Assembly: GCA_905178155.1 (NCBI GenBank)
Contig: CAJINV010000006.1
Location: forward strand, 502,398-566,397
Origin: Amoebophrya sp. A120
Taxonomy: Eukaryota > Protista > Dinoflagellata
Direction: 5' to 3'
DNA: 64,000 nucleotides
Positions within the stretch are counted from its first letter, which is position 1. Each line of letters opens with the position of its first letter. Under the pieces are notes generated by a model. That model ran no database searches and was not told the origin of the DNA. It was given only the letters and a program-made list of their open reading frames with translations. Shown in pieces: positions 25,701 through 64,000 of the stretch. The position numbers and the translations under genes are program-made.

Positions 25701-28700
25701 TGCTTACTCAGTATCAAACAAAAAAAGTTCGTCACGATCACTCATGCGCATTCTTGCAATACAAAATTGTTTGTCATGCGTAAAAATGCATCACAGCCAA
25801 ACTTTATTAGGGATTTCCCTAGTGTTTCTGCAACACAGAGGAAAGTAGTGATGCCAAAAAAATTTGTAATGCAAAACCCGCAAGTTAGTGACTGTGACAA
25901 ACTTTTTCCTCTCCATACTCAGCTTCCCACCCGGGATGGAAATGGAAGACGGCATCAGCTGCATCGACGGTGGGGTATGTAAATTCTTGGTTTTGTACAT
26001 GGCTGCATTCGGGGCGGCAGCGCGTGGTGAGCTGCCCCGCGAAGTAGAGCTCTTGCTGGTACTGTCGCTCGGAAGATTATTATTTCCATACGGCGTATCC
26101 CACGAAAAAAGTGTATACAGTTACACACTTTTTTATTGTAGTGAATTCAGCAACGCAAATTGCTCTGCATGAGAGAGAAAACTTGTAATGCAGCAATCCT
26201 ACGGGAATAAAACATAAACACCTATGAAACGAGGCTCCTATGCATATCCTGCATGACAGAGCTTGTCTGTCTTGCTTGGCCTGCATAGACTATGTGTGTA
26301 ACTGTAACACTTTTTTCTCGCGATACGGCGTCAAGGTTTTCACCACACTCGCGTTCACCACCGCCCGGTTACCGCGGGACAGTATCAAATACAAAAAATA
26401 TGCCTGGATGTCTGGAAGCGTACAATTTTGTCATGCAGAATTTCCATGCGCCATAAGGTCTGGAATGCAGGACCTAGCATGACAGATTGTGCGAGGTATC
26501 TATCATGCCTCTATTCCTGCATGAGAAACTCCCTCTCATCATGGTGGTCAACAGAAAAGGAAAGCTTTTGGCGATCGCGCAAGACAGATTTTTGTGTGGT
26601 CCAAATGACGCATCACAAGTTCCATCCTTCCAGACGCCGAGGGCATATTTGCAATGCATAGACAGCGCGCGCTCCCGATTTAGCCGGGAAATTGGTCCGG
26701 TATAGAGAGAAAAAAGTTTGTCACAGTCACTAAGCTGCAGGTTTTGCATTACAAATTTTTTTAGCATCACAAGCTCTCCTTGTAATGCAGAAACACTAGG
26801 GAAATCCCTTATGAAGTGTGGCTGTGATGCATTTTTACGCATGACAGACAATTTTGTATTGCAAAAATGCCCATGAGTGATCGTGACGAGCTTTTTTCTT
26901 TTGATATCCGGTGGACCCGGAATACTCCGACCGGCCGCTCTGCATGAAGTCAAAATGCGCACTGCCCTCCGCGTATCAAATGCAAAAATCCCTGGATGTC
27001 TGGAAGGTGGCAAGTTGTCATGGTAAATCTGAATCACGTAAAAATCTGTCTTGCATGATTACCAAAAGCTGTGCATTTTTGACCAAGTTAGGATGGAGTT
27101 TCTCATCGACAGGATAGGCATGATAGGAATCTCACAGAATGTCTGTCATGCTGAGTCCCGCATTCCAGATTTCACGGGTCATGGAAAATCTGCGTGACAA
27201 GTTTACACTTTTCCAGACCTCCAGGGATTTTCGCACTTGATACCGCGTGCAGCTGATGAGCAATCGGGTCGATCATTTGATGATCGTAGTCAATGATGTG
27301 CATTGCAAATATGTCTGGGTCGAGATTTGTGATGCAGGACGTCAAGGACAACAAGATCTGTAATGCATGAATACCATTGGCCAGTTTTTTTGTCGTGCTG
27401 GATATGGTAGTTTGTCATGCTAAATGCGAATGAAATCCCCAAAGAATGCCGAGGGAAATTTCTCATGCTGTTATACCTACAAGCAGCAAGTTTGCAATGC
27501 AAGTATCAGCAACACAAGTTTATTCCAGACCCAGACAACATATTTGCAGCTGATAGATGATGCTCGCTTGCGACTGCGACTGTCCCGACTCCATGTCCCT
27601 ACTACCAGGCTCGGGAATCTGCTCTGTGTATCAAAATGAAAAATCCCCCCTCCCGATATCAAAATGGAAATTTGTGATGCTGACTTGTGGTCACAAATCA
27701 TCGTTGTCTTGCCTATAACGCAATAGGAGCCATGTGGCGCATTCCAAAGCAAATCTGTCATGCGCTTGCGGCTACTGTAAACCTGTTTTCCATGCGTAAT
27801 TGCTAGCCTTCTGGATACCCAAACAGGCTTAGAGCATGCCGCCAAGCACTTTCTGCAAGACAAACCTGATTTGTGTTCCCAAATCCAGCATCAGAAACTT
27901 CGTTTTGATATGGGGAGGAGGATTTTTCCTCGCAATACTGTGCGCCGGGATGCCTCGGAGCCCTCCGCACGCGGCTGCCGGTGGTGCGGTCCTCCGGCGC
28001 CTATCCAGAAAAAAAAGTGTGTAACTGTAACTTTCTTTGAGGAACAGCATCACAAATTTACTCTACGTGACAGAGAAAACCTGTCATGCGTGGGTTGTAA
28101 GGCAAAACACACATAAAAAGAGGGCCTCATGGCTGTCTCGCATGACAGGTGTAACTCTGTTGCATGTTCTGCAACACAAATTTTTACTTCTTACACAGTT
28201 TTTTTCTTGCATAGCGCCCTGGAAGAAGTTATTGTTCGTCAGCTCGTCGGCCTCCGCAATGGTAGAATACAACCGCTTATGCATTGCAACAGTATCGTAC
28301 TAGTAGTGATTTTTGCATGACAAAGTTGTCATCAGCATGAGAAATGAAATTTCTGATGCTGATTTACCTTGAGAAAGAGCTTTGTCATGCATAATTGCAA
28401 TATACTATGAGTACGATACCTTTCCCCAGGATACCGGTACGCCGGATCGTTCGGGTGGATTTGGTTCGTTCCCGGGATCACATTCGGATGAATCATGGTT
28501 ACACAGCTCGGATTTTTATCCACTGCAAAAGTATCGCACTTGTACTAATTGCGACAATGCATTACAAATCTTTTTCTTCAGGCAAATCCGCATGACAAAT
28601 TTTATTTGTAATGCTAAGTCAATTTGTGATGCAATTTATGCTTAGTAGTACGATACTTTTGCAGTGCATACGGATGTTGAATCAGGACGTTTGGAGGTAC

Positions 28701-31700
28701 TACTGTCGCGGCTCCGCCGGGTAGTAGTTGTGTCATTTTGTCCTTGTGGTGGTGATGGTGGTGATGATGATGCCCACTACTGACCACGTGACTCCCCGCT
28801 GTGAAGCCCGCCGCCGCCACTTGAGTCGTCGTTTCATTGTTCCCGACTGCAGTGGAAAATGTCACTTTTTTGTCCATTGCCGACTTCCGCTGCTCCGACG
28901 TGGTCAAATTGTCCAGTTGCGCCACCATGTTCCCGAGGTTATCAGCATGATCTGAATGCAGCAGCGACGAGGGTCGCGTCCAATCGCAGGACAACGCGTT
29001 AGCCGCTTTTTTCAAGTCCACCCCCGGCGGCGGCACGATCTCGCCCTGTGTCGTGTGAGCTCCTCTGGTCGTGCTGCCAGGAGCAGCTGTGTTATTTGTA
29101 GTGTGCACAACTCCCCTGCTTGTTTCTTCGTCCCCCCGCGGGGGGCTTTTGCTCCGCTGCGCAATCACTTCGACGTCTATCACGGGGCAGGCCACCTTCG
29201 TTTGACACAGCTGCTGAAATACCGGTAACAGCGTTCCGCTCGGGAGCAGTTTCGGGCGCGTGGCTATCAAAAGGAAAAGTCCCCCCCTCCCCATGTCAAC
29301 ACGAAGTTTCTGATGCCGGCTTTGTGTAGTACACAGATGCCAACTGTCTTGCTGGCGAGGACTGCAGGCACATACTAACTGTGAGTAGAGAGGCCTGGGC
29401 CTACGCGCTTAGCATGAAAAACATCCGCACTGTAGGCCCAACAGCATCACCAACCGCCTGCATAATGCGGCGAAGCCTGTGGAGTTGCCTTCTTGCAAGA
29501 CAGACGTGATTTGTGGTCACAAATCAGCCACACAAATTTTCGAAAATAACGTACCTTGGCAATATGGGAAGGGGTGATTTTTCCTTACGATAATGGCGTG
29601 CGGCACGCGAATGGAAAAGAAAGTCGGAAACTGTGCTGCCGACTGTCTTTGCGTGTTCAGCAACTTGTTGATCTGTTGGGGCGGCGGCCCCTGCACGACA
29701 CCAGCGGTGGTTTTTGACGTGGTTTGCGCTTGAGGATTCGGCGAGGTCGTGGCAGAGGAGATAATTATGAACTGCAAAAGTATCGTAGTCGTACTCGTAT
29801 AAATGCATTACAAATTTCCTCAGCATGAGAAATAAAATTTGTAATGCTGATTTACCTTGAGGAAAAGATTTGTAATGCATGACTGCAATACGAATACGAT
29901 GCTTTCATAATAATGACCATGTGCTGCTGCTGTGGATCCTGCTGTTGAGAAGAAGTCCCTTGTATGGATGTGTCAGAGTTGAAATCGACAAAGTTGAAAT
30001 GATTTGCCATGCATAAAATGCGACACAAAGACTGACGCTATTGCTGAAGGCGCAAGGGAGGCAGATTCTAGTGCTGGTAAGGGTCAAGAATTGGGCTGCT
30101 GACTAGCATGACAGGGAGCAGCCACCTTTCCCTAAACAGCATGACAGACTTGCTTCAGAGGCCAGGAAAATTTGTCATGCGCCGATTGGAAACTGTGGGT
30201 GTCTAACTGGTATAGATTTTATGCATCACAAATTATTTCAACTTTGTTAATTTCAATCCTGACAGTTCCATACCTTGTTTCGACAGCGTACTAATTCTGC
30301 CGCTCCGGACCGGACTCACCGGGCTTTATCCTGTGTAAAAACGTCCCCACCCCATAGTCAACTTGGGAAATCTGCTAGACAAATCAACCAGCTTTGGCTG
30401 TTGCGCATGACAAATTTGGTCTCGGGGTGTAATCCTGATTTAGCTTGTTCAGAAGCATCACAGAGCTAGCCTATTGTGCTGATTGGAGCATTACAAATTC
30501 CAAAACACGATCAAGAAATGCGTGTCATAGGGCTCCGCATGAGAAACATTTTGAGCATGCAGGTTTGCATGACAAATGTGGCTTGGGGACGCTTTTACAC
30601 AGGATAGGCTTCCCGGCGGACTGAGTGTCGGCAACGCCGGTAACACCATATCCATTTGCGATGGAGGGGTCGGCGGCGCGGGGCCGCTGGGCGGGGACCA
30701 CGCGCCCAGAGCTGTGGCACCAGCGGCTGACGATTGCCGCCCTGGCACGGAGGAGCTCACCCCCGGCTTCGGGGAAGACGAACGGTAGTAGGAACCAGGC
30801 TTGTCAAACAATGAAGGCGGGACGGAACTACCCGGCTTTGCTTGCTGTTTCAGTTTCTGCTGTAGGCTGGTATTAGTATTACTGCTCTTGTCCTTGAAAT
30901 AGTTTTGGATGCAGAACCCGACATCTAACTCGTCGTCTTGTTCGTGTAACAGCCCGATAAGCGGCTCGGTCGGTTTATGGAAGTGTCAGAATCGAAATTG
31001 ACAAAGTCGAAAAATTTGTGATGCATGAAATCGATACCAGTTGGCGCCTCAGTTTCCAGGTGGCGCATGACAAATTTCGGGAGCACCCGAATCCAGTCTG
31101 TCATGCTGTTTGGGCAAAGAAGACTGCTCCTGTCATGCTACTCTGGCAGCACATTGCATGCCCCTAGACAGGCTTATAATCGGTCTCATTTACCTGCTTC
31201 CCAATACAGGCCTTCAGTGCCCTACATTTGACGCATCACAAGTTTTTCGATTTTGTCGATTTCGATCCTGACACTCCCATACGGTTTCACGTGGCTGTAG
31301 AGGTCTTCGCGACTTTCCAAAAACCTCCGCGCCCCAAGCTGGAAAAACGCCGCAGCCGAATCTTTATCCTTGCGCACCCCATGGTTTTTGCCGCCCAACC
31401 TCCCCGCTTCCCTTTCCAAAGTCATCGCCAGTTCTTCGATGTAAGCGTTCGTCTTTTCCACCAGTTGGGCCTCGTACTTCCCAAAAGCGTGAATTTCGGG
31501 ATTGTCCATCCAGCCGTTAGATTGCTTGATCGTATCACATGCAAAAGTGTCTGGGTCTGGAACGTTGGAACTTGTGAAGCTAACTTTGGACTCTAAACAA
31601 AATCTGTATTATGACCAGCAAGAGGAGTCTAGTTTGTGCTACGCGGGGAGGACATTTGTCATGCGGAGTAGGCATCCGGAAGCCCTCTAAAAATCTGTGA

Positions 31701-47372: not shown

Positions 47373-49776
47373 TCACAACAACTTCATCACTTCCTCCGCA
47401 TCCTGCACCGCTTCCTGCATGATCTTTTCGTTCCGTCCCTCCGCTGCTTTTACGTCCGGTTTCACGTCTTCCACTTCATACTCAGTCTCCGCCTTCTCCG
47501 CCTCGATCGGCCCCTGGTAGCCGAGATCCTTTCTTATCCTGTGAAAAAACGTCCCCACCCCAAAGTTGTAATGCAAATCTGCATGCTTAAAATGTTTCTC
47601 ATGCGGAGACCCACGAGAGGCGCTTTCTCATGTTGATTTGAGACTTGCCATGCTCTAATCAGCATGAGAAAGAGAATCTGTGATGCTACTGCACTAGCTG
47701 AATACGATTAAATCGCTCGCCCAAGTTTGTCATGCGCGACAGCCAAAGCTTAGGGATTTGTGTAGCAGATTTCCCATCTTGACTATCGGGTGGGGGCGTT
47801 TCTCTCCAGGATATTTCTCGCATCGTCATCATCCCCCTTCACCTCCGCCGGCGGCTCGGGCACATCCACGGTCTGGTCCACTGGTTTCTTCTATCAACTC
47901 CAAAAATGTCTGGGTCTGGAAAGACGAAACTTGTGATGCGCATCTCACAACACACAAAAATCTCTCATGCATAGACAGCAAGAGTTGTTGCCCATTTTTG
48001 TCACCGTAAAAATAGGCGATTGTTCGACGTCATGCGGATAGGCATCGACGCAGCTACTTCTCAATAAAACCTGTAATGCTAGACCTTGCTTGCCAGACCT
48101 GCCGGTGGTCATGGAAAAACAGCATGACAAAAATCTGCATCCTTCCAGAGGACCCAGACATATTTGCATTTGATATCTTCGGGGGATACGACGCCTCACA
48201 CGGCGCGCTGCTCGCTCCCGGCTTGCACTTCGGTTTACACAATTCCAACTTCCTCTCACCCTCCACGCCGGACTGGTTACTCGCCAGCGAGTCAGTGACA
48301 AATTTCTTCCCGTTCGGTTTTTTTCCCTGCTCGCACTCGCGCAGGCAGAAGAAGGAGAGATCCAATGGTTTTTTTCGCGAGTCCTGCATCAGACACTGCT
48401 GCCGGCCGGAGGTATCCGCCAACCCAGTGCGCAGGTTGACGCACCGCTTCACAATCGCGTTCTTCTTCTGCGGCGTAAACTGCTCTCGCGCTATCCGCTC
48501 CGTGTCTTCGACCTTTTGATACGTTTTGAAAAGACTGGAGTCCCCGCCGGTGTTTGCGTCTGCGTCCAGGATTTTTTTTTCTTTGATCTCCTTGTCCCCA
48601 ACCTCCGCGATCCTCAGTAAAAACGTCCCCACTCCGGAGTTGTCGTGCAGATTTGCAATAACAGGAACATTTGTGATGCGCATCCGCATGATAGGCATTT
48701 CCAGTTGTGTTTTGGAATTTGTATTATGCTGCAAACAGGATAAGCAAATGGATTTGCGATGCGGCTGTCCTTGCCAGCAACCTGTACTACACTGCGGACT
48801 GCAACTTGTCATGTGTGACTCCCAAAACTTCTAGGTTTGTGTTGCAAAATCCACATCTTGACTCCAGGGAGGTGGGGACGTTTTTACATAGGATATCGGC
48901 CACGACGTTGTTCCCTTCGCGAATCTCCGGGGGCAGCACGTCACAGACAGGTGCAGCTGCTTTCGTGGTTGTTTCAACAACATCCTGCTTCGACGACGCT
49001 GTTGTAGTGATAGACTTTCTGAACAAGAAAGACAGCACGTTGTCCTTCGAACTCGCAGTCGTCACACTTGCCTTCTCCGAAACGAAACAGCACTCGCAGT
49101 CGCAGGGTGGGGTTTCCAGGTTGCCGTTAGCCGGATCCTGTTCATTCACTAGATCATCCAACCACTCCTGCTTCGCAACCGGAAAAGCAGACTATGAGAA
49201 TGCGCAACTCCTCCCCCCTCATTTCTTGTGTTGCATGACCAGTACCACAAGCGGAAGCGCGGGCAAAGATGCAGCTTTTGCATGACAAATTCCTAGAGGA
49301 TTGTAGTTCTGTTTTGCCTTTCGGAATCATGATCTGTCATGCAAAAAGTGCTATCAGGGAGAAGGTAGATTTGGGATTTTGCATGACAAATGAGGGGGAG
49401 GGAAAACTGTGCACTGTCATACAGACTCGCTGTCGTCCGCAAAGACCTCGTCTGGGCTGTCGCCCGTGGGCTCACTCTGCGTTATGACGTCCAGCGGGGA
49501 CGGGATTTGTCTTACCGTTTGTGGAAAAGAAATTTTGTTGCGCTGTACTTTTTGTCTTCCTGCTGCGCCTTGAATGTGAGAAGTAGTAATTCTGCTCCAT
49601 TCATGATTCCAATGGCCCTCCTCCTCCAAACCGGGTAGGCGGAGTGCAGCTGCAATTAGAGTAGAGGTAGTCGTTGTGGTGTGCAGAAGCTGGCAAGAAG
49701 AAAGCACGACAGACACCACGCACCGGAGGTCGGTCGGTGCGACCATCCATCTCTTGCGAGAGGACTTCATCCGCAT
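47373..49776 (-). CDS. Hypothetical ~434-aa Cys-containing, possibly secreted protein; 5 exons
   Basis: Exons 49422-49776,48896-49187,48176-48603,47814-47886,47373-47529 = 1305 nt in frame. Confidence 0.72.
47535..47813. mobile_element. Introner family B
   Basis: TSD TTTCT. Confidence 0.9.
47892..48175. mobile_element. Introner family A
   Basis: TSD TCTTC. Confidence 0.9.
48609..48895. mobile_element. Introner family B (GAT start)
   Basis: TSD TCCGC/TCGGC. Confidence 0.86.
49193..49421. mobile_element. Introner family J
   Basis: TSD CAGAC. Confidence 0.88.
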
Positions 49777-50651: not shown

Positions 50652-53600
50652 TCAACAGCAGACAAAGCCAGGGGGTGCCCCCATTGATGATGTCGTTGAC
50701 GACGTACTAGTTGTCGCATTTTTCCCACTTGTTCCTCCCATCTCGTATCCAGGAAAAAAACTGTGTAAGTGTAACTTTGTAAGGAAGAGCAGCATCACAA
50801 ATTCGCTTTGCACTACAGGGAAAACCTGTCATGCGCAGCTAGTAAGTGGAAACACGTATGATAGTAGCCTATGACGCACTTCCAGCATGACAACTGTATA
50901 CTGTTTTGCATTTTCTGCATCACAGATTTACACTTACACAGTTTTTTTCTTGCATATCTCGGGCGCTACAGACACCGGAGGTTCTTCGCTTCCGACACAG
51001 GCTTCCAGCCGACACACCTGCGTCCAGTGCAGCGGCCCGCAAGGTATGAACTGCAAAAATGTCTGGGTCTGGATGAATGCAGGTGTTCGTGTTTGTGATG
51101 CCGGTTTTGCATGACCCAGAGTGTCTGGCATGCAGGACCAGCATCACAGGTTCTTCGAGAGGAGCTTCACGATGCCTACTCTGCATGAGAAATCGGCTCT
51201 CACCATGCCCAAACATTCGCAGCTTTTGCTGTTTGTGCAAGACAGATTTTTGCGTGATCTGAAATGCGCATCACAAGTTGCAACCTTCCAGACCCAGACA
51301 TATATATTTGCAATGCATACAAGGCATTCCAGCCCCGCTTTGTTCGATCAGCACCCTTCGCGTTTGTTCGTAGCTACCCTCGCCACAGGTCACAGAGCAG
51401 TCCTTTTCCGCGTCCCCTTCCCACGAGGACACCACGCAATCGATTTCTATGGGAGTGTCAGGATCGAAATCAACAAAATCGAAAAACTTGTAATGCATAA
51501 AATGTATGGCACGCAAGGCCTGTATTGGGGGGGCAGGCAAATGAGACCGATTGCAAGCCTGTTTAGGGGTATGCAATGTGCTGCCAAAGTAGCTTGACAG
51601 GAGCAGCCTTCTTTGCCCAAACAGCATGAGAGACTGGATCTAGGTGCTCCCGAAATTTGTCATGCGCCACTTGGAAATTGACGCTCCAACTGACTTCGAT
51701 TTTGAGCATCACAAAATTTTCGATTTTGTCAATTTCGATTCTGACACTCCCATAATGTCAGGAGAGGGAATAGTATTACCGGTCGTGTTCGCTCCACCTG
51801 TAATACTTGTATTCACGACCGGGCATGCCTCCAAATTGCACTCTTCCACGACTTCCTTGGCCTCACAGCTCTTCCCGTTCCCCGTGGGTGAAACGGAGAT
51901 GCTCCGTCGCTTTACGTAGTGCCCACTTCCGCACGTAACCGTGCAGTCGGCCACAGGGTCGAAGGGTGCCCATTCGGACATGACGCAGTCGAGATCTTCT
52001 TGTTCACCTCCGGCTGGAGGGGGGCTATCCGTAGTCGTACTCGTTATCGGGCATGTCGTCTCTGCGTCGCACGGTGTCTGTTCTTCCAGGGTGAACTCAT
52101 CACACGGGCGGCCGGCGCCGGTGTCCGCACTGATGATCTCCCTTGTCCGTGTAGTCCGCATGCCGGCCCCGCAGGTGACGGAGCAGGCGCCGCTGCTGTC
52201 TATATCAAATGCAAAAGTGTCTGGGTCTGGAACAAAGCAACTTGTCATGCGAGATCTGAACCATGTAAAAATTTGTGTTGCATGATTACCAAAAGCTGCC
52301 CACTTTTGAGTTAAGTAATCGAGAAGCAGTTCCTCATGCAGGATAGGTATGATAGCACTCTCACAGAATCTGTCATGCTATGTCGTCCATACCAGACCTC
52401 ATGAATCATGAAAAACCTGCATGACAAGTCTGGCACTGTTCCAGACCCAGACATTTTTGCATTTGATAGTCCACCCAGTCCGACAAAACGCAGTCCACCG
52501 GACAAAGAACCCCGAGGTTGCAGTCCTCCCACCGCGTCCTCTGCGCGTCGCAGGTCTGGCCGGTACCGACTGGATGGACCTCGATTGTCCGCTCTTGCTG
52601 GTACTGGCCGATTATTCTGCGGGAAAACGTCCCCACCCCAGCGTTGTCATGCAAATCTGCATGCCAAAAAAGTTTCTCATGCGGAGCCCCATGAGAAACA
52701 TTTGCTAGCCGTGTTTTGCGATTTGTGATGCTAGCATCAGCATGCAATGCTTGGTCTGTGATGCTGCTGAACTAGCCAGACAGGATTACACTACAAGGCC
52801 AAACTTGTCATGCGGAACAAACAAAGCTGGCTGCTTTGTGTAGCAGGTTTTCCATCTTGACTCTGGTGTGGGAACGTTTTTACTAAGGATACCGATGCCC
52901 CCGCAACTAACCGAACACTCTTTCACGTCGCCCGCCCACTCACTCAGCACGCAGTCCTATGCATTGCAATTATCGATCTGGGTGGTCGGGAAGAATTTTT
53001 ATGCAGGTTTGTCATGCTTGTCTCACATGACAGTTGAATCTGTAAAATGCGCGAGCAGGAACAAAGCCTCTTCCCTGTCATGCAAAAGTGCAGCTTGCCA
53101 TGCGGAAATCGAAACACAACAAAGGAGCCCAGAAACTTGTCATGCGTGGCTCCGTATTGCAAGTATACGCCCACCATTCGCAAACTAGCATCACAAGTTC
53201 TTTCCAGAGCCAGATCGATTATATTTGCATTTGATAAGTCCACGGGGCACGCACTTAACTCGCAATTGCGGAGCCGCGACCTCTCTGTGCTGCAGGGAAC
53301 GCCGGCCCCCACGGCCGGGGTGACGACCGACCGCGTCTGTGTGTACGTCCCGGGCCCGCAGGTCGGGGAACAACTACTGACGTCGCCCGCCCAATCACTC
53401 AGGACGCAGTCCACCGGCTATCCTTCGGAACAAAGACGTCCACACCGTAGAGTCAATGATTGGGAACTCTGCAGCACAAATCTACATGTTCTGAGAGTCA
53501 CGCATGACAAGTTTTCTCTGTATTGTGGTGAAGGTTTTTAGCACCAAGGAAGTCGCATCACAAACGCATGTCCTCAACCTGTTTACAGCAATACAAATGA

Positions 53601-56600
53601 TCCCAAAAGCAAAACTCGATTGAAAATGCCTCTCATGGGAATGCGCATTACAACTGTTCCTGTGATTGCAAATCTGCATGACAACTGTGAAGTGGGGACG
53701 GTTTTGCTCAAGATACCGGTGCGGGGGTGGTTGTCGTCGTGCGACAGTCGGGGAGGCGGTAAACGCCCCACTTCGGATGCCCGTATCGTGAGGAAAAATC
53801 CCCCCTCCCCATACTCACAATGGAAATTTGTGATGCTGATTTGTGACCACAAATCAGCTTTGTCTTGCATATGAGGCAAATGGGAGCCGTGTGGCGCATT
53901 CCACAGCCAAGCTCTCATGCGCTTTTGCCTACTGCAAAGCTGTCTGTCATGCCCGAGTGCTAGCCTTTTTCATACCTAATCATGCTTAGGAAATGCCTGC
54001 AAGCGCTTTCTGGAATGCAGAGCTGATTTGTGTACACAAAATCCAGCAATAAAAATTTGCGTTTCAATATGGGGAGGAGGCTTTTTGCACTTTGATAGCC
54101 CGGCGTCCTCCGTCTCGATGGGGTGCGTGTCAAACATCGCCTGATACCGCCAGAAGCAGCCCGTTTGATCGTTGGAGAGAGTCCCAGCACCTGCGTCCTC
54201 CTCCGTCGGGGACAACCGGCCCCGAAACTCCATCCGCAGCCACGTGTTCAGGGCGGGCGAGCCGCTGAAGAGAAAAGGAACGTCTTCGTTCTATCCTGAT
54301 TAAAAGCGTCCCCACACCAGAGTCAAGATGGGGATTTTGCAACACAAACCTAGGAGTTTTGGGAGTCACGCATGACAAGTTTCAGTCCGTAAAGTAGTGC
54401 AAATTAGCAAGGAAAGCCGCATCACAAATCGACCTGCTAATCCTGTTTACAGCATTACAAGTTCCCAAAACACGATTGAAAATGCCTGTCATGGGGTTGC
54501 GCATCACAAATGTTCCTGTCATGGCAAATCTGCATGACAACTCTGGGGTGGGGACGTTTTTCATCAGGATACGTTCCACTTGTTTCGGCTTTTCCACACG
54601 TGTCGATTCGGCCAGTATGCATTGCAAAAATCATGTCCGGGAGGTCTGGAAGGATGCAAGGTGTGTCATGCTTGTCCGGCATGACTGAAGAGTTTGTGAT
54701 GCGTGTCCAAGAAGAGACCCTACTTCCGCTCGTCATGCAACACGCAGCTTGTCATGCCAACACTAAGACTTGCGCGAATATTTTATTTCTCATGCTTGGC
54801 TGTGCATTACAGACGAGAAATCACTATTCACAACTCAGCATTACAAGTTTCCAGACATCCAGATCGATATTTGCATTTGATAGCCAGCCGACGTTGCCGT
54901 GCATGTGCCCGTTTACCACGGCAATCACACAGCTGTCGTCCACCAGGTCGTTGATAACTTCGTGCGTCATCCCCTTGTGAGCAGCGCCACGTGTGAAAAT
55001 GTGCAAAAACAACACCGCGTACCGTGACCCGTTAGGACTCGACGCCTGCCACTCCGGGTCGCCGCAGGTCTTGCGCAGCTCCTCGCGGAGCCAATCGACA
55101 CTGTGGCGGAGGCCGTTCAGTGTACGGCAATGCGCCGTGTTGGTGTAGTGGTAGAGGCTATCCCCCTATGGATTGTAAAAATGTCTGGGTCTGGAAGAAT
55201 TGGAACTTGTGATGCTTACTTTGGTCTCTAAAAAAGTCTGTATTGCATGACCAGCAAGAGGAGTCTAGTTTGTGCTACGCGGGGAGGGCGTTTGTCATGC
55301 GGAGTAGGCATCGGGAAGCCCTCTTAAAATCTGCGATGCTAGGTAGTCGTGCATTGCAGACATCCTGGGTCATCCAAAACATGCATGACAAGTCTCAGAA
55401 TCTTCCAGACCCAGACATTTTTACATTTGATACCCCCGTTCTCCCGTCGCAGGCTTCCACACCGTACGTGGACCACTGACTCGGCGACCGGAAGTATCAA
55501 AATGAAAAATCCCCCCTCTCCATATCAAAACGGAAATTTGTGATGCTGATTTGTGGCCACAAATCAGCTTTGTATTGCACAGAGGCACTGCGGCCAGATC
55601 CCCAGGCTAGGTCGGGGCGTTTGGGTCTAGTAGTTCAGCATGGCAAACGGCCCCCCTTTAGGCCCAACAGCGTGACAAATCGCTTCCATAATGGGGCGGA
55701 AGCTTCTGCCCTTGTCTTCTTGCAAGACAGATGTGATTTGTGACCTCAAATCCGCAACACAAATTTCTGAAAACATACCTTTTCAATATGGGGAGGGGGG
55801 ATTTTTCCTCTCAATAGGAAGCAGTCGGCCCCGCGGCCGCGCTGCGCGCACGTACCTTCATAGGCAGGGTGCATGTGCAGGGCAAACATGCGGAACCGGC
55901 CATTGTCGTGCGGATGGGTCCAAGCGTAGGACCCGGACTCCCGGTGAAAAGCGTCAATCACGGAGTTTTTTCGGAAGGTGTCACTCGCAGTACCGAACTG
56001 TTCCGCACTTTTCGTCGCCGCCCTTTTTGAGACGGGAAACCGATTCGAGGCCGCGAAGCCGGATTGCGTGTCACCGCTCGCCGGATCCCGGTCGGCCGTC
56101 GATACCAGTGTTCGGATGTACTGCAACTGACCCATCGCTCTTCCGTTCCCGCACCACAGGCGCCCGACCTGCGCTTGCTCGTACAGATACCCATACGTCA
56201 CCTCATAGTCGTGGTTGCCCAGGAGGGGCAGCACGTACCAGTCCTTGCGTGGGTTAAACTGGTGCAAAAATTTGGAGAAGTACTCTTCAATCTGCGGCTG
56301 CGTTCCGAGGTGCGTTAAGTCCCCCACCACGACCACATCCTGCCGTGCGTAGTTGCCCGGGGGCAGCGCCGTTGTCCCAGGTAAATCGACGAGACCCCCG
56401 CCGTCGTCGGCGGGCAAATTGTGGGCCTCATCATGCTATCAAATGCAAAAGCGTCTGGGGCTGGAAACTTGTGATGCTGGGTGGCGTATCATGAGGAGGC
56501 CACAAGTGCTGGCTCAGCGTGACAAGTTTCTGAGCTTCTAGGTGAAGGTGTTGCCTATTCTGCATGACAAACTACGTTTCTACATGACAGAAAAGTGGGG

Positions 56601-59127
56601 CTCTTGGGTAACGCGCATGACAGATTTGAAAGTCATGCCAGACAAGCATGACAAACATGCACTCTTCCAGACCCAGACATTTTTACATTTGATACATGCC
56701 ACTGACAGCCCGCGCGGTTCGCTTTGCAGGCCATGACACCTTGGGTCACAGCGCCCTGCACGGTGTCGCTGTGAAAAAAATCGCACTTATCCTGTGTAAA
56801 AACGTCCCCACCTACCCAGAGTTCTTGTCATGCAAATCTGCATGCTCAAAATGTTTGTCATGCGGAGCCCCATGAGAAGCATGATTTTCTGGTCGTGTTT
56901 TGGAATTTGTATTGCGCCAATCAGCATGATATACGAGATCTTCTGTGACGCTGCTGAACTACCTCAAACAGCACTACAGTACACTGCGACTCCAAATTGT
57001 GATGCAAAACAGCCAAAACTCGTGGACTTGTCTAGCCGATTTCCCATCTTGATCTTGACTATGGGGAGGTGGGGACGTTTTTACATAGGATAACGCTCGC
57101 TCGCCTGCTGCGTCGCGTACGAAGAGCCCGGCAAGACCTCGAAGCCCTTGAAAGTGCTCTTGTACCCGAATTGCACGTCCCCGACCACGAAAAGGTCGTA
57201 GGACTCGTAGTCCTGCTGTCCGGGAGAAAAGGAAGTTGGCGCCGTCTGAAAGTAGTTGTAGTATCCTGAGTAAAAACGTACCCACACCAGAGTCAGGATG
57301 GGGATTTTGCAACACAAACCTAGGAGTTTTGTGAGTCACGCAGGACAAGTTTCAGTCCGTAAGGTAGTGCAAGTTAGCAAGGAAAGCCGCATCACAAATC
57401 GATCTGCTGATCCTGTTTACAGCATTACAAGTTCCCAAACACGATTGAAAATGCCTGTCATGGGGTTGCGCATCACAAATGTTCCTGTCATGGCAAAGTC
57501 GCATGACAACTCTGGTGTGGGTACGTTTTTACTCACGATATGTAGGACTCGATGCTCCCGACTTGCTGCTCGCTCGTGGTGCAGCCTGCGGTGGAGAACG
57601 TGCCACTTTCCTATCAAGTGTAAAAGTGTCTGGGTCTGGAAGATTGCCAGGTTTGTCATGCATATTTTGCATAACCCATGATGTCTGTAATGCCCGGCCG
57701 ATCATCACAAATTTTTAAGGGGCCTTCTGATGCGTATTCCCCACGAGAAACGCGCGCTCCGCGTAGCACAAACTGAACTCCTCTTGCTGGTCATGCAATA
57801 CAGATTTTTTTTACCTTCCAAAGACGGCATGACAAGTTGCATTCTTCCAGACCCAGACATTTTTACATTTGATATTTCCTGAAAATAGCCGTCTGCGGTG
57901 CAGTATTTCACGTTGCGAAACTATCCCACGAGAAAAGTGTTACAGTTAAGTACACATTTGTAGTGAATTCAGCAACACAAATTTCTCTGTATGAGAGAGG
58001 AAACTTGTAATGCAGAAATCCTACAGGAAATAAACACCTATGAAACGAGGCTCCTATGCACATCCGGCATGACAGAGCTTGTCTGTCTTGCTTGGCCTGC
58101 ATGGACTATGTGTAAAAACTGTAACAGTTTTTTCTTGCGATAGAAACGCCAGCTGTCTCTGGTTGCTGCTCTCGGACCCGTTCTGCTGGTCCAGGCACCA
58201 ACACTTGCTATGCCTGATTGCTTGCTGTATCAAATGCAAATATGTCTGGGTCTGGAAGTTTGTGATGCTAAAATGTGCAAGAGGAATGCACTCCCTTCAT
58301 GCAGGAAAGCATGACAAGTTTACAAAGAACGCTTTCTCACACAAACTCCGCATGGCAAACTGCGTTTTTGTATGACCACAGGAAAGGCTACCACTTTTGT
58401 TGGTCATGCAATACAGATTTCACAGGAATGCAAGACGAGCATTACAATTTCCAACTTTATTCCAGACCCAGACATATTTGCATTTGGTATGCTGAATGTC
58501 GCGGCTAACCGAGTCCGGCACCCAAGCACTGCTCCCCGGAACGGGCGAGCAGTCCACGCCCTTTAGCTTTTCGAGTTCCGTATTTTTCATCTTCATCTCT
58601 AGGGTAGAAGTGCCAGTGCTGGCCCTTTGATTCTCCAGCCGCTCACGCACCTGTTCCTTTGCAGCGGAAGTAGAAGCCCGCGACGCAGCAGCCAGCTTCT
58701 GGAGCAGGGATGTAGAGCTTGCTCTGGTCCTCGCTTTGTTCGAACTAATCCTGCCGAGATGTTGTGATCGTGCTGTAGTTCTGCGGCCCATGCTAGAAAT
58801 TGTTCCAGCATTGTTGTTCTTTCTCCCTCGCGTTCTCTTTGTTCCCAGCAGTTGTGCCTGGTAGGCAGCGGCAAACGGAACATCAAATAAGCCGTCGACA
58901 TTTTTATAACTGGAATCTGTTGCCGTAGAATAAGTGGGGGAAAGTGAATGGATAAGTTTTGTGGAAGTTGTTTTTGCGGGAGTGAACCATAATGTCGAGA
59001 GCCGATGGAGAAGATTAATAGTGGTACAACTCGGGTGGAGCCACACAAGGAGGACAATGGTTTTTTTGACCATTACTGAATGCTGATCCACAATTTTCTT
59101 TGGGAGAACAACAATATTAAACATCAT
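50652..59127 (-). CDS. ~1144-aa calcineurin-like metallophosphoesterase fused to five spondin-type TSP1 repeats; 19 exons, 18 introners
   Basis: Exon sum 3435 nt; motifs VVGDVQFG, VVGDLTH, LGNHDY, LFLHIF, VNGHMH; TSP1 DCVLSDW...CSxTCG...RxR x5; ends PPGFVCC*. Confidence 0.82.
50746..50956. mobile_element. Introner family E
   Basis: TSD TCTCG. Confidence 0.9.
51045..51319. mobile_element. Introner family A
   Basis: TSD CAAGG. Confidence 0.9.
51448..51754. mobile_element. Introner family D (inverted relative to 30976)
   Basis: TSD ATTTC/ATGTC. Confidence 0.88.
52203..52468. mobile_element. Introner family A
   Basis: TSD GTCTA/GTCCA. Confidence 0.9.
52613..52891. mobile_element. Introner family B
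   Basis: TSD CCGAT. Confidence 0.9.
52958..53236. mobile_element. Introner family A (diverged)
   Basis: TSD AGTCC. Confidence 0.88.
53419..53715. mobile_element. Introner family B (diverged)
   Basis: TSD CCGGC/CCGGT. Confidence 0.85.
53784..54097. mobile_element. Introner family C
   Basis: TSD GCCCG. Confidence 0.9.
54292..54571. mobile_element. Introner family B
   Basis: TSD CGTTC; close sister of 57262. Confidence 0.92.
54616..54882. mobile_element. Introner family A
   Basis: TSD GCCAG. Confidence 0.88.
55167..55432. mobile_element. Introner family A
   Basis: TSD CCCCC. Confidence 0.9.
55495..55816. mobile_element. Introner family C
   Basis: TSD GGAAG. Confidence 0.9.
56437..56694. 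mobile_element. Introner family A
   Basis: TSD CATGC. Confidence 0.9.
56788..57092. mobile_element. Introner family B
   Basis: TSD GCACT/ACGCT. Confidence 0.85.
57262..57540. mobile_element. Introner family B
   Basis: TSD TGTAG. Confidence 0.92.
57612..57874. mobile_element. Introner family A
   Basis: TSD TTTCC. Confidence 0.92.
57922..58142. mobile_element. Introner family E
   Basis: TSD GAAAC. Confidence 0.9.
58228..58489. mobile_element. Introner family A (GTA end)
   Basis: TSD TGCTG. Confidence 0.9.
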
Positions 59128-59871
59128 GATAAAGATACAACTTTCTATGGGGCGACAAAGCGTCTACAGACGAAAGACGACAATAAAGACAGGAAGACAA
59201 TAGAATACTTTCTGTTTCTGAAACGGTCGGCGGGGTGCAAATAAATTTACACGGTTGTAAGTAGCATCCAGGTTCATCTTTCTGGGAGGATTTCTTGCCT
59301 GTGAAACTGAAAAATCTCGGTGGATCATCACGTCGCATCATCCAGTTGGTGGAGCTAAAAACGACATAACCACCTACGATGCAGAAGATTGCTTGGACGA
59401 TCATGGAGCAGTACGAGTACGACTACGAGAGCTGCAGGACGATTAAAAATTATTGGACGATGTATAAAACAAGAAATAAGTGCGACACCACAAGGAACAA
59501 GCGAATCATGTTGAGAGGTGGTTGTAGACACGATGATTTCTTTTTCCGCTTGATCAAGAAATACTGTCTGATACATTGACCCGACCACGCGTAGGGTCGT
59601 GTGGTCATGGCGCGATCTTCAGTATTAAATACTGTTTATAGGTTTTCAGTTTTGATGTTGTCCAAGAGCAAGTATTCGGAGTAAATTCGCTTCTAATTCA
59701 GTGGGACGACGAGAACTTACACCAGCCTTCATTTCAGAAACCATTAACGAAAGCGGCGCGAAACTGCAACTGCTGCGCCTGCGACGAGTACACGACGGAA
59801 AAAATACAAACAACGGATTGGAATTGCTGGACGATATTATTTGCTCATTCTGGGGTCATCCTCGTCCACCT

Positions 59872-62800
59872 CTAACAGCACAACCCTGAATAATCCGGGG
59901 GGTCTCCTACAGCAGTAGCGCCATTACTTTCCGTGCTCAAAACTTCTAAATCTCCAGCTGCATTGGAGATGTTAGCAGGGACTAGATCGGGAGGTGTCGC
60001 GTTCGTCGAAGAAAAATCTGTTGTGTTGTTCTGCAGACCACTAGGTGTAGAAGTTGTACCATCTTCAGTGCTGCCAGCACTACTGTTCGTAGAAACACTA
60101 CTAATACTACATTCCTGCAAAACTCCTTCACAGGCTTCCTCCTTTTCCAACGCAAAACCGCTGCAGGGACGCCCACCCCCAACCGCGTCACTGAGCACTT
60201 CTCTCGTCAGTCGGCGCACCCCAGCGCCACAGGTTACGCTACAGGAGGTTGTAGTACTGCCACCCCACTCAGTGAGCTGACAATCCCTGTCCACCGGCGT
60301 AGTTGGTGGATCATCTACGACAGGAGCTGATGTCGACACGGTCGGGGTTGTTGTCCCCCCGTCCTCGTCGCGACACGCGGGGAGCCGAAACGCACCGTGC
60401 CGCATAATGTTTGCTTCGTCTGGATCTGCTTCCACGGGCTTGGTCTTGTACATGCTCTGGAACCGCCAGAAACACTATCAAATGCAAAAATGTCTGGGTC
60501 TGGAACTTGTGGTGCGAACTTTGGACTCTAAAAACGTCTGTATTGCATGACTAGCAAGAGCAGTCTAGTTTGTGCTACACGGGGAGGGCGTTTGTCATGC
60601 GGAGTAGGCAGCAGTAAGCCCTCTAAAAATCTGTGATGCTAGGTCGTGCATTACAGACGTCCTGGGTCATGTGAAACATGCATGACAAGTCTCAGAATCT
60701 TCCAGACCCAGACATTTTTGCATTTGATAAACACGACGCGGCCGGAGATGCGGTGTCAAGAACCTCCTGCTCTCCGCCACTATCAGCCTCCGCGCTGGCG
60801 CGGCCGGTGAATTCCATGCGCAGCCAGGTGTTCATGGCCGGGGAGCCGGCGAAGAGAAAGGGCACATTATTAAGAGGAAAAATCCCCCCTCCCCATATCG
60901 AAAACGAAAGTTGTGACGCTGTATTTGAGTACACAAATCGACTTGTATTGCTAGAAGGCCAAGAGCCGCAGCTGGGGCCTCGTTTGCAGGCAATTTGTCA
61001 TGCTGTTTCCTACTTCCAGCTGCCTCCTGTCATGCTGAAGATGCAAGGCTTTCCCAAGCCACCCAGCACTACAGTCAGAATCTTTTCCCTTCTAGCATGA
61101 CAAAGCTGATTTGTGACTACAAATCTGCAACACAGATTTCCGTTTTGATATGGGGAGGGGGGATTTTTCTTCTTGATACACATCGTCGCCCCACTTGTTA
61201 ACGCTTTTCCACGAGTTTTTGACCTCCCACCCAATCCGCTCGTGGCAGTGGCCGTTTACAACGGCGACGACGCAACTGTCGCGCACCAAATCGTGGATCA
61301 CGTCCGCCGTCATTCCACTCTCGGCGCCGTGGTTCTTCCCGTTTTTAAAAATGTGCACGAATAGCACGGCGTACCGCGACCCCTTGTGCCCCCTCGCGGC
61401 CCAGGTCTCGTCGTCGCACGTCTTCAGCAGCTGGTCCCGCAGCCAGTCCACGCTCGGCCGCAAGTGTCCCAACGTGCGGCAGTGCCCCGTGTTTTCCTTG
61501 TGATACAAGGCGTGGCCGTATCCTGTGCAAAAGTACTATCGCACTCGTTTAGTGATTGCATTTATGCATTACAAATCTCTTTCGCAAGACAAATTAGCAT
61601 TGCAAATCTAATTTGTAATGCTGGGCTAAAACTTGTAATGCAAATTAAACTAGTAGGATGCTTTTGCATTGCATAGGCCGCGCACCCCGTCACACGCCTC
61701 CATGCCGTACGTGGAAAGCTGTCCCGCTATCGTGAGGAAAAATCCCCCCACCCCATACCAAAAAGGGATACTTGTGATGCTGATTTGTAGCCACAAATCG
61801 TCTCTGTGTTGCAAGCAGGCCAATCCAAAGACTCCTTCGCATTGTGCTGGCGGTTTCTGATGCTATGGGGCCTACAGAGTACACATTTGCCATGCTACGC
61901 GCCTACGTCAAAGCCCTTCTACTTAGGCTTGGTATGGGCCTGCAGTTCCCTACTGCAAGACAGACCTGATTTGTGTACGCAAATCCAGCATCAGCAACTT
62001 CGTCTTGATATGGGGAGGGGGGATTTTTCCTTTTGATACCCGCGCATTCTTTCCCGCCGGGCGCGCACCCCGCGGAGGGCGCCTTGCCGGCATTGCAGTT
62101 TTCTTGGTTACACCCCTCGGTCGAAAAACATTTCCCGTCGGCGTTCACGTACCCCCGCTGCGCACAGGTGCCCTCGTAGGCCGGGTGCATGTGCAGGGCG
62201 AACATCCGAAACCGCCCGTGGTCCTGCGGGGGGGTCCAGGCGTAGGACCCCGACTCGCGGTGAAACGCGTCAATAACGGAATTGTGCGCCCACTGCGGGT
62301 GTGTATCCAAAACCGCGTTCGCGGCGCGCTTGGTCACCGGGAAGCGCACAGACTGCGCGCATCAAAGTGAAAAAAGCCCCCACAACATACGCAAAAGGCG
62401 ATTTGTGTTGCTGGATTTGTGTACACAAATGAGCTTTGTATTGCAGCGAGAGTTTGTCGGCATATTCTAAGCCCATTTAGATACGCATCCGGCTAGCAGC
62501 TGCGCATGAGAAACAAGGCTGAGATAGGCGAAAACGCATGACAGGCTGGCTGCACAATGCGCCACATGGGTGCCGTTTGCCTTGTACGCAAGACAGACCT
62601 GATTTGTGGTCGCAAATCAGCATCACAAATTTCCTTTTCGATATGAGGAGGGGGGATTTTTTCCTCGCAATAGCGCGAGGGGGTGATGCGCCTCGTCTAT
62701 GGATGTGTCAGAGTTGAAATCGACAAAGTTGAAATAATTTCCCATGCATAAATTGCAAGGCATGAACTGCCTCTCTTGCAGGGACGGCAAGTGATGCCGA

Positions 62801-63859
62801 CTGTCAGCCTGTTTGGGGTCTGCGATAGAGCTACTAAAGTAGCACTACAGAAGACGCCTTCTGGGGCCCCTAAACAGCATGACAAACTGGATTTGGACGG
62901 TGCCAAAATTTGTCATGCGCCGCTTAGAAATTGGGCTTCCACCTGGTATCGATTTTATGCATTACAAATTATTTCAACTTTGTCGATTTCAACTCTGACA
63001 CATCCATATCGTCGGATATTGGTGTAAAGTCCGCGGTCGTGAGCATTACCCGAATGTACTGTAGTTGTGCCATGGCCCGACCCACCCCGCTATCAGATGT
63101 AAAAGTGTCTGGGTCTGGAAGAATGCATGTTTGTCATGCTTGTCTGGGATGATTCTTAAATCTGTCATGCACGTTACCCAAGAGCCCAATTGTTCTGTCA
63201 TGCAGAAACGCAGTTTGTCATGCAGAATAGGCAACACCTAGAAGCTCAGAAAGTTGTCATGCTGAGCCAGCACTTGTGGCGTCCTCCTGATACGCCACTC
63301 AGCATCACAAGTTCCCAGACCCAGACATTTTTGCATTTGATACCCGCACCAGCGGTGGGCGTCTCTGTGCGGGAACAGGTAGGGGTAGCGGTTCTGGTAG
63401 TCGTGGTTGCCCAGCATGGGCAGCACGTACCAATCCTCCTTCGGATCGTCAAATTGATGCAGAAACTTTTCGAAATACTCTTCCAACTGGCTCATAATGC
63501 CCAGATGCGTCAAGTCTCCCACGACAATGACGTCCTGACGAGGATGTGCAACCATTGAAGCCGAGGACCCAGCAGGACTTGCCCCCGAGGATTCAGGGAG
63601 CTGAACAATTGTGGTAGTAGTTGTTGTAGTCCCAGCAGATGACTGGTCTTGTGCCTCCACTAGCCTCATCGCGTCCGCGTGCCACGTGCAACTCCCCCGG
63701 TCCGCCTTGCAGGCCTTCACGCCCGCGTCGAGGGCGGCGGGTATGGTTGTGGTATCATGGGGAAACGACTGTTTCTCCCCGTTTTCGGTCCTCTTTCGCG
63801 TTGCGGACTCGGATTCGGGGGGGTCCAGCTCGAACCATTTGTCAAAGTGGCTTGTGTAA
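59872..63859 (-). CDS. Paralogous metallophosphoesterase with one TSP1 repeat, 5' end outside the window
   Basis: Exons 63343-63859,63009-63085,62673-62692,62039-62354,61676-61722,61179-61513,60730-60862,59872-60470; VVGDLTHLG, LGNHDY, VNGHCH; ends PPDYSGLCC*. Confidence 0.82.
60476..60729. mobile_element. Introner family A
   Basis: TSD AACAC. Confidence 0.92.
60868..61178. mobile_element. Introner family C
   Basis: TSD CACAT. Confidence 0.9.
61519..61675. mobile_element. Introner family F
   Basis: TSD GGCCG. Confidence 0.87.
61728..62038. mobile_element. Introner family C
   Basis: TSD CCCGC. Confidence 0.9.
62360..62672. mobile_element. Introner family C (CAT start)
   Basis: TSD GCGCG. 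Confidence 0.87.
62698..63008. mobile_element. Introner family D
   Basis: Perfect ~40-bp TIR, TSD TCGTC. Confidence 0.92.
63091..63342. mobile_element. Introner family A (inverted sister of 56437)
   Basis: TSD CCCGC. Confidence 0.92.
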
Positions 63860-63864
63860 CCCAG

Positions 63865-64000
63865 TATGCATTGCAAATATCCCTGGATGTCTGGAAGGTG
63901 GCAACTTGTGATCCTGTCTGTGGATTCTAAAAAAATTTGTCCTGCATGAGGAGGAAGACGAGTCCAGCTTTTGCTACGCGGAGAGGGCATTATTTCTCAT
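63865..64000. mobile_element. Introner family A, cut by the window edge
   Basis: Left TIR TATGCATTGCAAATATCCCTGGATGTCTGGAA. Confidence 0.8.

What the first reader, a model, noticed from the sequence alone, without database searches (positions are those of the whole stretch)
55162..61680. Different introner families at exactly the same codon position in two paralogs
Seen: paralog 1 reads EACDGRTG|DSLYH with a family A element (55167-55432); paralog 2 reads EACDGVRG|HALYH with a family F element (61519-61675). Both TSDs cover the same five codon positions and each matches its own diverged gene (GGGGG vs CGGCC on the sense strand). Two other pairs are only about 8-10 nt apart (54292 vs 60868; 55495 vs 61728), and the rest are unshared. 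Inference: parallel gain at structural hotspots, or excision followed by re-occupation.
Basis: seen in the sequence. Interest (0 to 1): 0.75.

Follow-up and report, generated by a model that had tools for sequence, protein, structure and literature searches.

The report
Two transposon introns, one shared site
In two old duplicate genes of the marine parasite Amoebophrya, two different transposon-derived introns sit at exactly the same codon; they likely landed there independently, by a coincidence made about twice as likely by a short DNA target motif that both families prefer, so this is an ordinary case of parallel intron gain rather than a proven hotspot.

Summary
Observation confirmed. A 266-nt family A and a 157-nt family F introner sit at the same nucleotide of two tandem metallophosphoesterase-TSP1 paralogs of Amoebophrya sp. 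A120 (10 of 10 alignments). Both are removed with one 5-nt TSD in likely-RNA contigs. The paralogs are far older than the elements and each TSD copies its own gene, so these are two independent insertions. A hotspot is not shown: P(at least one exact hit) is 0.034 under a uniform null, 0.057 motif-aware, and 0.15 pooled with control alignments that gave 0 hits. Families A and F share a target half-site, T-N-G 13 to 11 nt before or C-N-A 15 to 17 nt after the TSD start (167 of 218 and 44 of 68 sites, against 12%). The conserved Tyr-His codons supply it fully in paralog 1 and one synonymous transition away in paralog 2. Excision and re-occupation has no support. The introners and parallel intron gain are both published; this scan noted the offset motif before on other DNA (e1-10674348).

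The parts
55167..55432 (-). Family A introner, 266 nt, TAT...ATA inverted ends, in paralog 1 at EACDGRTG|DSLYH
   Evidence: 217 other family members held, nearest 91%; joint 55161->55433 skips 271 nt
55433..55437 (-). Upstream TSD copy of the A element (GGGGG, sense)
55162..55166 (-). Downstream TSD copy of the A element (GGGGG, sense)
55149..55151 (-). Full target half-site C-N-A at +15..+17 (CCA, in the Tyr-His codons TAC CAC) beside the A element
   Evidence: A-model weight 5.2x mean, 96th percentile
61519..61675 (-). Family F introner, 157 nt, in paralog 2 at EACDGVRG|HALYH
   Evidence: 67 other members held, nearest 79%; joint 61513->61676 skips 162 nt
61676..61680 (-). Upstream TSD copy of the F element (CGGCC, sense)
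61514..61518 (-). Downstream TSD copy of the F element (CGGCC, sense)
61501..61503 (-). Near half-site TCA at +15..+17 (Tyr-His codons TAT CAC), one synonymous transition from C-N-A
   Evidence: F-model weight 0.34x mean, 68th percentile
50652..59127 (-). Paralog 1: 1144-aa metallophosphoesterase plus five TSP1-type repeats, 18 introners (P0001)
   Evidence: 4.1-kb contigs in X3 and X4 follow the spliced form
59872..64000 (-). 3' part of paralog 2: metallophosphoesterase plus one TSP1 repeat (P0002, 1119 aa; its start lies beyond the window), 7 complete introners examined
55495..55816 (-). Upstream neighbour in paralog 1 (about 320-nt family), 57 nt before the shared site in the spliced gene
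61728..62038 (-). Upstream neighbour in paralog 2 (same family as 55495, opposite orientation), 47 nt before the shared site; not at a homologous column
54292..54571 (-). About 280-nt family element in paralog 1, 8 nt from the site of 60868-61178
60868..61178 (-). About 320-nt family element in paralog 2, 8 nt from the site of 54292-54571

Best explanation
Two introners of different families sit at the same codon of two old paralogs and are cut out of likely-RNA contigs with one 5-nt repeat; they likely inserted independently after the duplication, and the match is likely a coincidence helped about twofold by a target motif that both families share. Shown: same position, different families, precise removal, and the family-wide motif (T-N-G 13 to 11 nt before, or C-N-A 15 to 17 nt after, the TSD start; one side is enough; independent of gene strand and element orientation). 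Inferred: a common, unidentified DDE transposase mobilises A and F, touches target DNA about one helical turn outside a 5-bp staggered cut, and so prefers the same columns in both paralogs where conserved codons (here Tyr-His) keep the motif. Also inferred: paralog 2 had TAC when F landed, or TAT is tolerated.
For: Age order: 4-fold sites 57 of 147 identical between paralogs against 91% and 79% identity of the elements to their nearest family members. TSDs differ at 3 of 5 positions between genes yet are 5/5 within each, and TSD identity is not needed for removal (a 3/5 TSD element is removed). Truly inherited sites look different: recent duplicates in L034 and L061 carry 100% identical elements. 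Motif: 167 of 218 A and 44 of 68 F sites against 0.12 at shifted positions; held-out sites fall in the local top 10% for 76% (A) and 58% (F). It is seen in the window (A, 22 of 30) and in the other assembly (A, 145 of 188). 54 of 1596 aligned columns have a full half-site in both paralogs, against 18 if independent. Null: 0.034 uniform, 0.057 motif-aware; controls 0 observed, 0.127 expected; pooled P=0.15.
Against: The F site as it reads today is not a strong motif site (0.34x mean weight; the shared column ranks 114 of 1611 in the A x F product), so the motif explains part of the coincidence at most. P=0.03-0.06 for this pair is still on the low side. Pairs within 8 nt are in mild excess across all alignments held (6 observed, 2.7 expected, P=0.054), and three TSP1 repeats have sites within 6 nt of each other (P=0.045). 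The controls are too small to exclude a severalfold hotspot effect. No transposase was identified.
Confidence: 0.65

Rival explanations
1. True insertion hotspots: chromatin, DNA shape or tolerance of the protein at certain positions makes some columns far more likely to be hit than the motif model predicts, in both paralogs and across families.
For: One exact hit at P=0.03-0.06; 6 pairs within 8 nt against 2.7 expected, P=0.054, and a three-family cluster at the TSP1 repeat start, P=0.045. Insertions cluster strongly: 175 of 356 neighbour distances are 30-99 nt against 87 +/- 7 expected, and both shared-site elements have a neighbour 47-57 nt upstream.
Against: 0 exact hits in control alignments. 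The shift null that keeps each gene's clustering gives the same 0.033, and 0.12 for two pairs within 8 nt. Sites are not significantly in poorly conserved protein stretches (P=0.14). The case was selected after the fact from a genome where the scan has notes on 229 windows.
Confidence: 0.22
2. An intron or element stood at this codon before the duplication, was excised or lost in each copy, and the emptied site was filled again by a new family (excision and re-occupation, as reported for Stowaway).
For: It would explain an exact match without luck; the site would be phase 0 under the 1+4 cut; repeated loss and gain at one site is reported for a grass MITE (abstract of PMC1925063).
Against: No footprint: the alignment is gapless at the site. 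None of the other aligned sites (8 in paralog 1, 5 in paralog 2) is shared, so nothing shows elements older than the duplication. It needs at least five events against two. Farhat et al. report that 98.6% of positions conserved between A25 and A120 are canonical introns.
Confidence: 0.09
3. One ancestral element was inherited by both paralogs and its interior was later overwritten by other families through the related inverted ends, keeping the old flanks.
For: A and F ends are related (TAT start, TGYAAAA at positions 8-14), so templated repair between families is conceivable.
Against: The old TSD would have to change in both of its copies at three positions between the genes and stay 5/5 in each although identity is not needed for removal. 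The pair is no more alike than random A-F pairs (0.41 against 0.42 +/- 0.02).
Confidence: 0.04

Closest known systems
Introner elements (non-canonical introns) of Amoebophrya sp. A120 (Farhat et al. 2021, PMC7789003; read: abstract, passages, Results parts 2-3, one supplement search; Gozashti et al. 2025, PMC12130899, passages)
   Same: Same organism; inverted ends starting TAT with a run of A, short direct repeats, no GT-AG, many families, removed from transcripts.
   Different: The parts read compare intron positions between A25 and A120 orthologs; they do not count shared sites between paralogs or describe a flanking target motif.
Parallel intron gain: fungal introner-like elements (PMC4457414, passages), Daphnia pulex (PMC4202315, passages), Micromonas introners (PMC4540971, passages)
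   Same: Unrelated introns gained independently at the same or nearly the same position; hotspots proposed from few cases.
   Different: Those are GT-AG spliceosomal introns in alleles or orthologs, often scored within 10-15 nt. Here the match is exact, within one genome, dated by TSDs, and a shared target motif can be measured.
Homoplasious Stowaway MITE insertions in Triticeae beta-amylase (PMC1925063, abstract only)
   Same: Different MITE lineages at one site.
   Different: There, excision footprints and a species phylogeny show repeated loss and gain; here no footprint is seen, the inserts lie in coding sequence and act as introns.
IS3EU/GingerRoot and IS481EU DNA transposons (PMC10045372, passages)
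   Same: IS3EU has TA..TA termini; IS481EU makes TSDs of about 4, 15 or 25 bp, steps of about one helical turn, like the offset of the half-site here.
   Different: IS3EU TSDs are usually 6 bp, here 5 bp; no transposase was found or tested, so this is a lead only.

Membership tests
Amoebophrya A120 introner elements | Host is Amoebophrya sp. A120 | tested here: met
   An exon of paralog 1 is 100% identical to a protein named Amoebophrya sp. A120
Amoebophrya A120 introner elements | Inverted repeats starting TAT, then a run of A | tested here: met
   11 of 14 terminal bases pair in both elements; compare Farhat text
Amoebophrya A120 introner elements | 3-5 nt direct repeat at the borders | tested here: met
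   5/5 TSD at both
Amoebophrya A120 introner elements | Repeated in the genome as families | tested here: met
   31 A and 8 F among 79 elements of the window
Amoebophrya A120 introner elements | Removed from transcripts without requiring GT-AG | tested here: met
   Joints of 271 and 162 nt in X4 contigs, offsets match in X3; RNA status of these runs is the tool's guess; F has no GT-AG register on the sense strand
Parallel intron gain | Same position in homologous genes | tested here: met
   10 of 10 alignments
Parallel intron gain | Inserted sequences not homologous by descent at this site | tested here: met
   41% global identity, equal to random A-F pairs; closer kin elsewhere; gene-specific TSDs
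Parallel intron gain | Outgroup lacks an intron at the site | not testable with these tools
   No homolog beyond the two A120 proteins; no whole genome held
Insertion hotspot | Coincidence rate above a realistic null | tested here: inconclusive
   P=0.034-0.057 for this pair, 0.15 pooled; near pairs P=0.054
Excision and re-occupation | Footprints or empty alleles at the site | tested here: inconclusive
   No footprint in the alignment; DNA runs of other strains do not cover the junctions
IS3EU/GingerRoot transposons | TA..TA termini | tested here: met
IS3EU/GingerRoot transposons | TSD usually 6 bp | tested here: not met
   5-bp TSD; joints skip element plus 5 nt
IS3EU/GingerRoot transposons | IS3-like DDE transposase in an autonomous partner | not tested
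   No autonomous element was sought or seen

The most novel reading that the evidence does not exclude
In Amoebophrya, conserved codons pre-write the landing sites of introners: several families read one target half-site a helical turn from the cut and favour positions 30-99 nt from an existing element of another family, so paralogs gain introns at identical positions several times more often than chance. Shared intron positions, and the phase-0 excess, would then arise from transposase targeting without common ancestry or spliceosomal proto-splice sites.
Probability: 0.3. Interest if true: 0.6.

Novelty: new member of a known kind. Interest (0 to 1): 0.3.

Why it matters
How often shared intron positions reflect independent gain rather than ancestry is an old question, usually argued from decayed introns. 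Here both inserts are young, assignable to families and dated by their TSDs, so the independent gain is unambiguous. The measured target motif turns the vague word hotspot into a number (about 2.4-fold for A x F, 3.7-4.0-fold within a family) that can be tested over all A120 paralogs. As a single case it stays within what chance plus that motif can give.

Tried and rejected
Whole-genome count: no genome is held and the fetched loci are not searchable by handle. More homologs: only the two A120 proteins among 1431 candidates; none among 488 shorter candidates; no ortholog of any window gene in 133 loci, only hits to unremoved element sequence. No match of the A-family end in viral contigs. Strain polymorphism: estuary run X9 holds element pieces and one 151-nt exon piece at depth 2 but bridges neither junction; raw RNA runs X10 and X11 laid no exon reads; no holder is on record as RNA. 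A window-only position matrix over -10..+14 showed only weak GC bias and missed the motif, which lies just outside. Splicing as cause of the motif was rejected: it is equal on both sides in sense orientation (G-11 121, C+15 124 of 289). Insertion into variable protein loops was not significant. Local hopping as cause of clustering was rejected: close neighbours are the same family in 22 of 188 against 19% expected. The 55495/61728 pair was rejected as a different-family near match. A search of Gozashti 2025 Dataset S2 for the genus name gave 0 hits, so its family classes were not seen. Paper searches showed no study of shared introner sites between A120 paralogs; figures, unread supplements and subscription journals may hold one. 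Rows dropped: 8 non-repeated candidates in the window; 85 of 664 candidates; 3 F-like window elements with degenerate ends from then on; one gene with a stop; 1 of 7 paralog 2 and 9 of 18 paralog 1 sites lie outside aligned columns.
Full report
What is there. An exon of the first gene is 100% identical to a protein named Amoebophrya sp. A120, and its only other hit among 1431 candidates is the neighbouring gene. Farhat et al. 2021 (PMC7789003; abstract, passages, Results parts 2-3 and one supplement search read) describe these elements: non-canonical introns with inverted repeats starting TAT, 3-5 nt direct repeats, 29,850 copies in 1954 families. The two genes encode a calcineurin-like metallophosphoesterase domain followed by TSP1 repeats.

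The observation. Removing each element plus 5 nt opens both frames and gives the annotated proteins across the site. The paralogs align over 537 codons, 299 identical. The A element (55167-55432) and the F element (61519-61675) fall on the same nucleotide column, and codon 593 maps to codon 323 in 10 of 10 alignments. Contigs of run X4, which the tool guesses to be RNA, skip 271 nt (266+5) and 162 nt (157+5) at the two sites; record offsets in run X3 match the spliced model in 6 of 6 intervals tested. The 8-nt near pair is right. The 10-nt pair is not a homologous or different-family pair: it straddles a stretch present only in paralog 2, and both elements belong to one family.

Independent insertion. 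Four-fold degenerate sites of the paralogs are 57 of 147 identical, whereas the A element is 91% and the F element 79% identical to its nearest family member among those held. A and F are 41% identical, the same as 40 random A-F pairs (42 +/- 2%). The TSDs differ between genes at 3 of 5 positions yet are perfect within each gene, and a perfect TSD is not needed for removal, since the element at 56788-57092 with a 3/5 TSD is removed. Inheritance would need three matched double changes without selection (inference). Real inheritance looks different: recent duplicates in L034 and L061 carry identical elements. So both elements arrived after the genes had diverged.

Chance. Nine paralog 1 sites and six paralog 2 sites lie on 1611 aligned columns. 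P(at least one exact match) is 0.034 uniform, 0.033-0.043 with phase weights, 0.050 with a window-trained matrix plus phase, and 0.033 or 0.047 for shift nulls that keep clustering. They merge to 119 pieces of 634 kb from another assembly with the same families; 579 of 664 candidate elements were kept, 74 of them in the window. None holds an ortholog of these genes. Control alignments (paralog pairs in L004 and L048, 16 repeat units in L004, 6 TSP1 units in the window) gave 0 exact matches against 0.127 expected; pooled with this pair, 1 against 0.161, P=0.15. Pairs within 8 nt are 6 against 2.7, P=0.054, and three TSP1 repeats carry sites within 6 nt, P=0.045, so a soft regional effect is not excluded. 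The controls have little power.

A shared target motif. With about 570 sites, families A and F both show T at -13 and G at -11, or the mirror C at +15 and A at +17, counted from the first TSD base. A full half-site is present at 167 of 218 A sites and 44 of 68 F sites against 0.12 at shifted positions; three other families show 12 of 56, 19 of 55 and 11 of 51. One side is enough (either key base 206 of 221, both 55). The signal is equal on both sides of the gene's sense strand and of the element's orientation, which points to DNA target choice and not to splicing (inference). Held-out sites rank in the local top 10% for 76% of A and 58% of F. Because codons are conserved, 54 of 1596 columns have a full half-site in both paralogs, against 18 if independent. 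At the shared site the Tyr-His codons give CCA in paralog 1 (full match, weight 5.2x) and TCA in paralog 2, one synonymous transition away (weight 0.34x). Among sites without a full match, one-transition variants are enriched (34 of 51 A, 13 of 24 F, against about 0.23), so TCA is a plausible decayed or tolerated half-site. The model raises the A x F coincidence rate 2.45-fold and the whole-pair expectation to 0.059, P=0.057. Half-site availability by codon phase (23, 34, 42%) also fits the observed phase bias (81, 89, 119 of 289).

Mechanism. Shown: same column, different families, precise removal, shared motif. Inferred: one unidentified DDE transposase moves A and F through their related ends, makes a 5-bp staggered cut and contacts target DNA about one helical turn away; conserved codons keep such contacts at homologous columns; luck did the rest. 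IS3EU has TA..TA ends but usually 6-bp TSDs, and IS481EU makes TSDs in helical-turn steps (PMC10045372, passages); this is a lead, not a test. The one informative joint (56783->57094) fits a cut one base before and four after the element, or two and three; earlier scan notes favour the first, which would make the shared intron phase 0.

Rivals. A true hotspot (0.22) rests on the low single-pair P, the near-pair excess and strong clustering, but controls are empty and the case was chosen after the fact. Excision and re-occupation (0.09) lacks footprints and any element old enough; no outgroup or strain data could be had. Overwriting of an inherited element (0.04) fails on the TSDs.

What is known. 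Parallel gain is reported for fungal introner-like elements (PMC4457414, passages), Daphnia (43 of 90 new introns; PMC4202315, passages) and Micromonas, where hotspots were suggested without statistical support (PMC4540971, passages). GC and linker bias of introners is in PMC9860276 (passages); repeated MITE gain and loss at one site is in PMC1925063 (abstract). Searches showed no count of shared sites between A120 paralogs; figures and unread supplements may bear on this.

Verdict. A real, cleanly documented parallel intron gain by two known introner families, within reach of chance once target preference and selection of the case are counted. New member of a known kind; interest 0.3.

Noticed in passing
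window and L001-L133, all introner sites: Neighbouring insertion sites are 30-99 nt apart in 175 of 356 cases (null 87 +/- 7), rarely under 30 nt (14 vs 46) or 100-199 nt (36 vs 83). Family lengths step by about 55 nt (150, 212, 262, 321), close to the spacing peak. Unexplained; possibly a chromatin unit or a minimum exon size.
   Followed up: partly
window and L001-L133: Close neighbours (30-99 nt) are the same family in only 22 of 188 cases against 19% expected: possible same-family avoidance, and not local hopping.
   Followed up: partly
window and L001-L133: Target motif differs by family: A and F use T-N-G / C-N-A; the 212-, 227- and 308-nt families share only T-13 / A+17; the 282- and 321-nt families show no position at z>=4. 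This may sort families by transposase.
   Followed up: partly
window 53419-53715, 52958-53236, 51448-51754: Three TSP1 repeats of paralog 1 each have an element of a different family within 6 nt of the repeat start (P=0.045).
   Followed up: partly
window 56783-57094: Element with a 3/5 TSD is removed; the joint fits a cut 1 base before and 4 after the element, or 2 and 3.
   Followed up: partly
window 4523-64000: All 12 long introner-bearing reading frames taken as genes lie on the minus strand, in line with the unidirectional gene clusters reported for Amoebophrya.
   Followed up: no
L001-L133: A second public assembly carries the same introner families at up to 80-93% identity to six window elements of the finding and 87% to a seventh; useful for presence/absence comparison if its orthologs can be fetched.
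   Followed up: partly
L004 and L048: Tandem paralogs in the other assembly: a cysteine-rich CPxDC repeat protein pair (73% identity) and a pair at 30-45% identity, with no shared introner sites.
   Followed up: yes
window 50652-64000: The metallophosphoesterase-TSP1 proteins have no detected relatives outside A120, and both end in Cys-Cys; function not examined.
   Followed up: no
window 28278-28670, 29766-29907, 17380-17642, 48609-48895, 62360-62672: Elements with degenerate ends (first base changed or end eroded); frames stay open when most are removed, but the gene at 27523-30290 kept one stop in my model.
   Followed up: no
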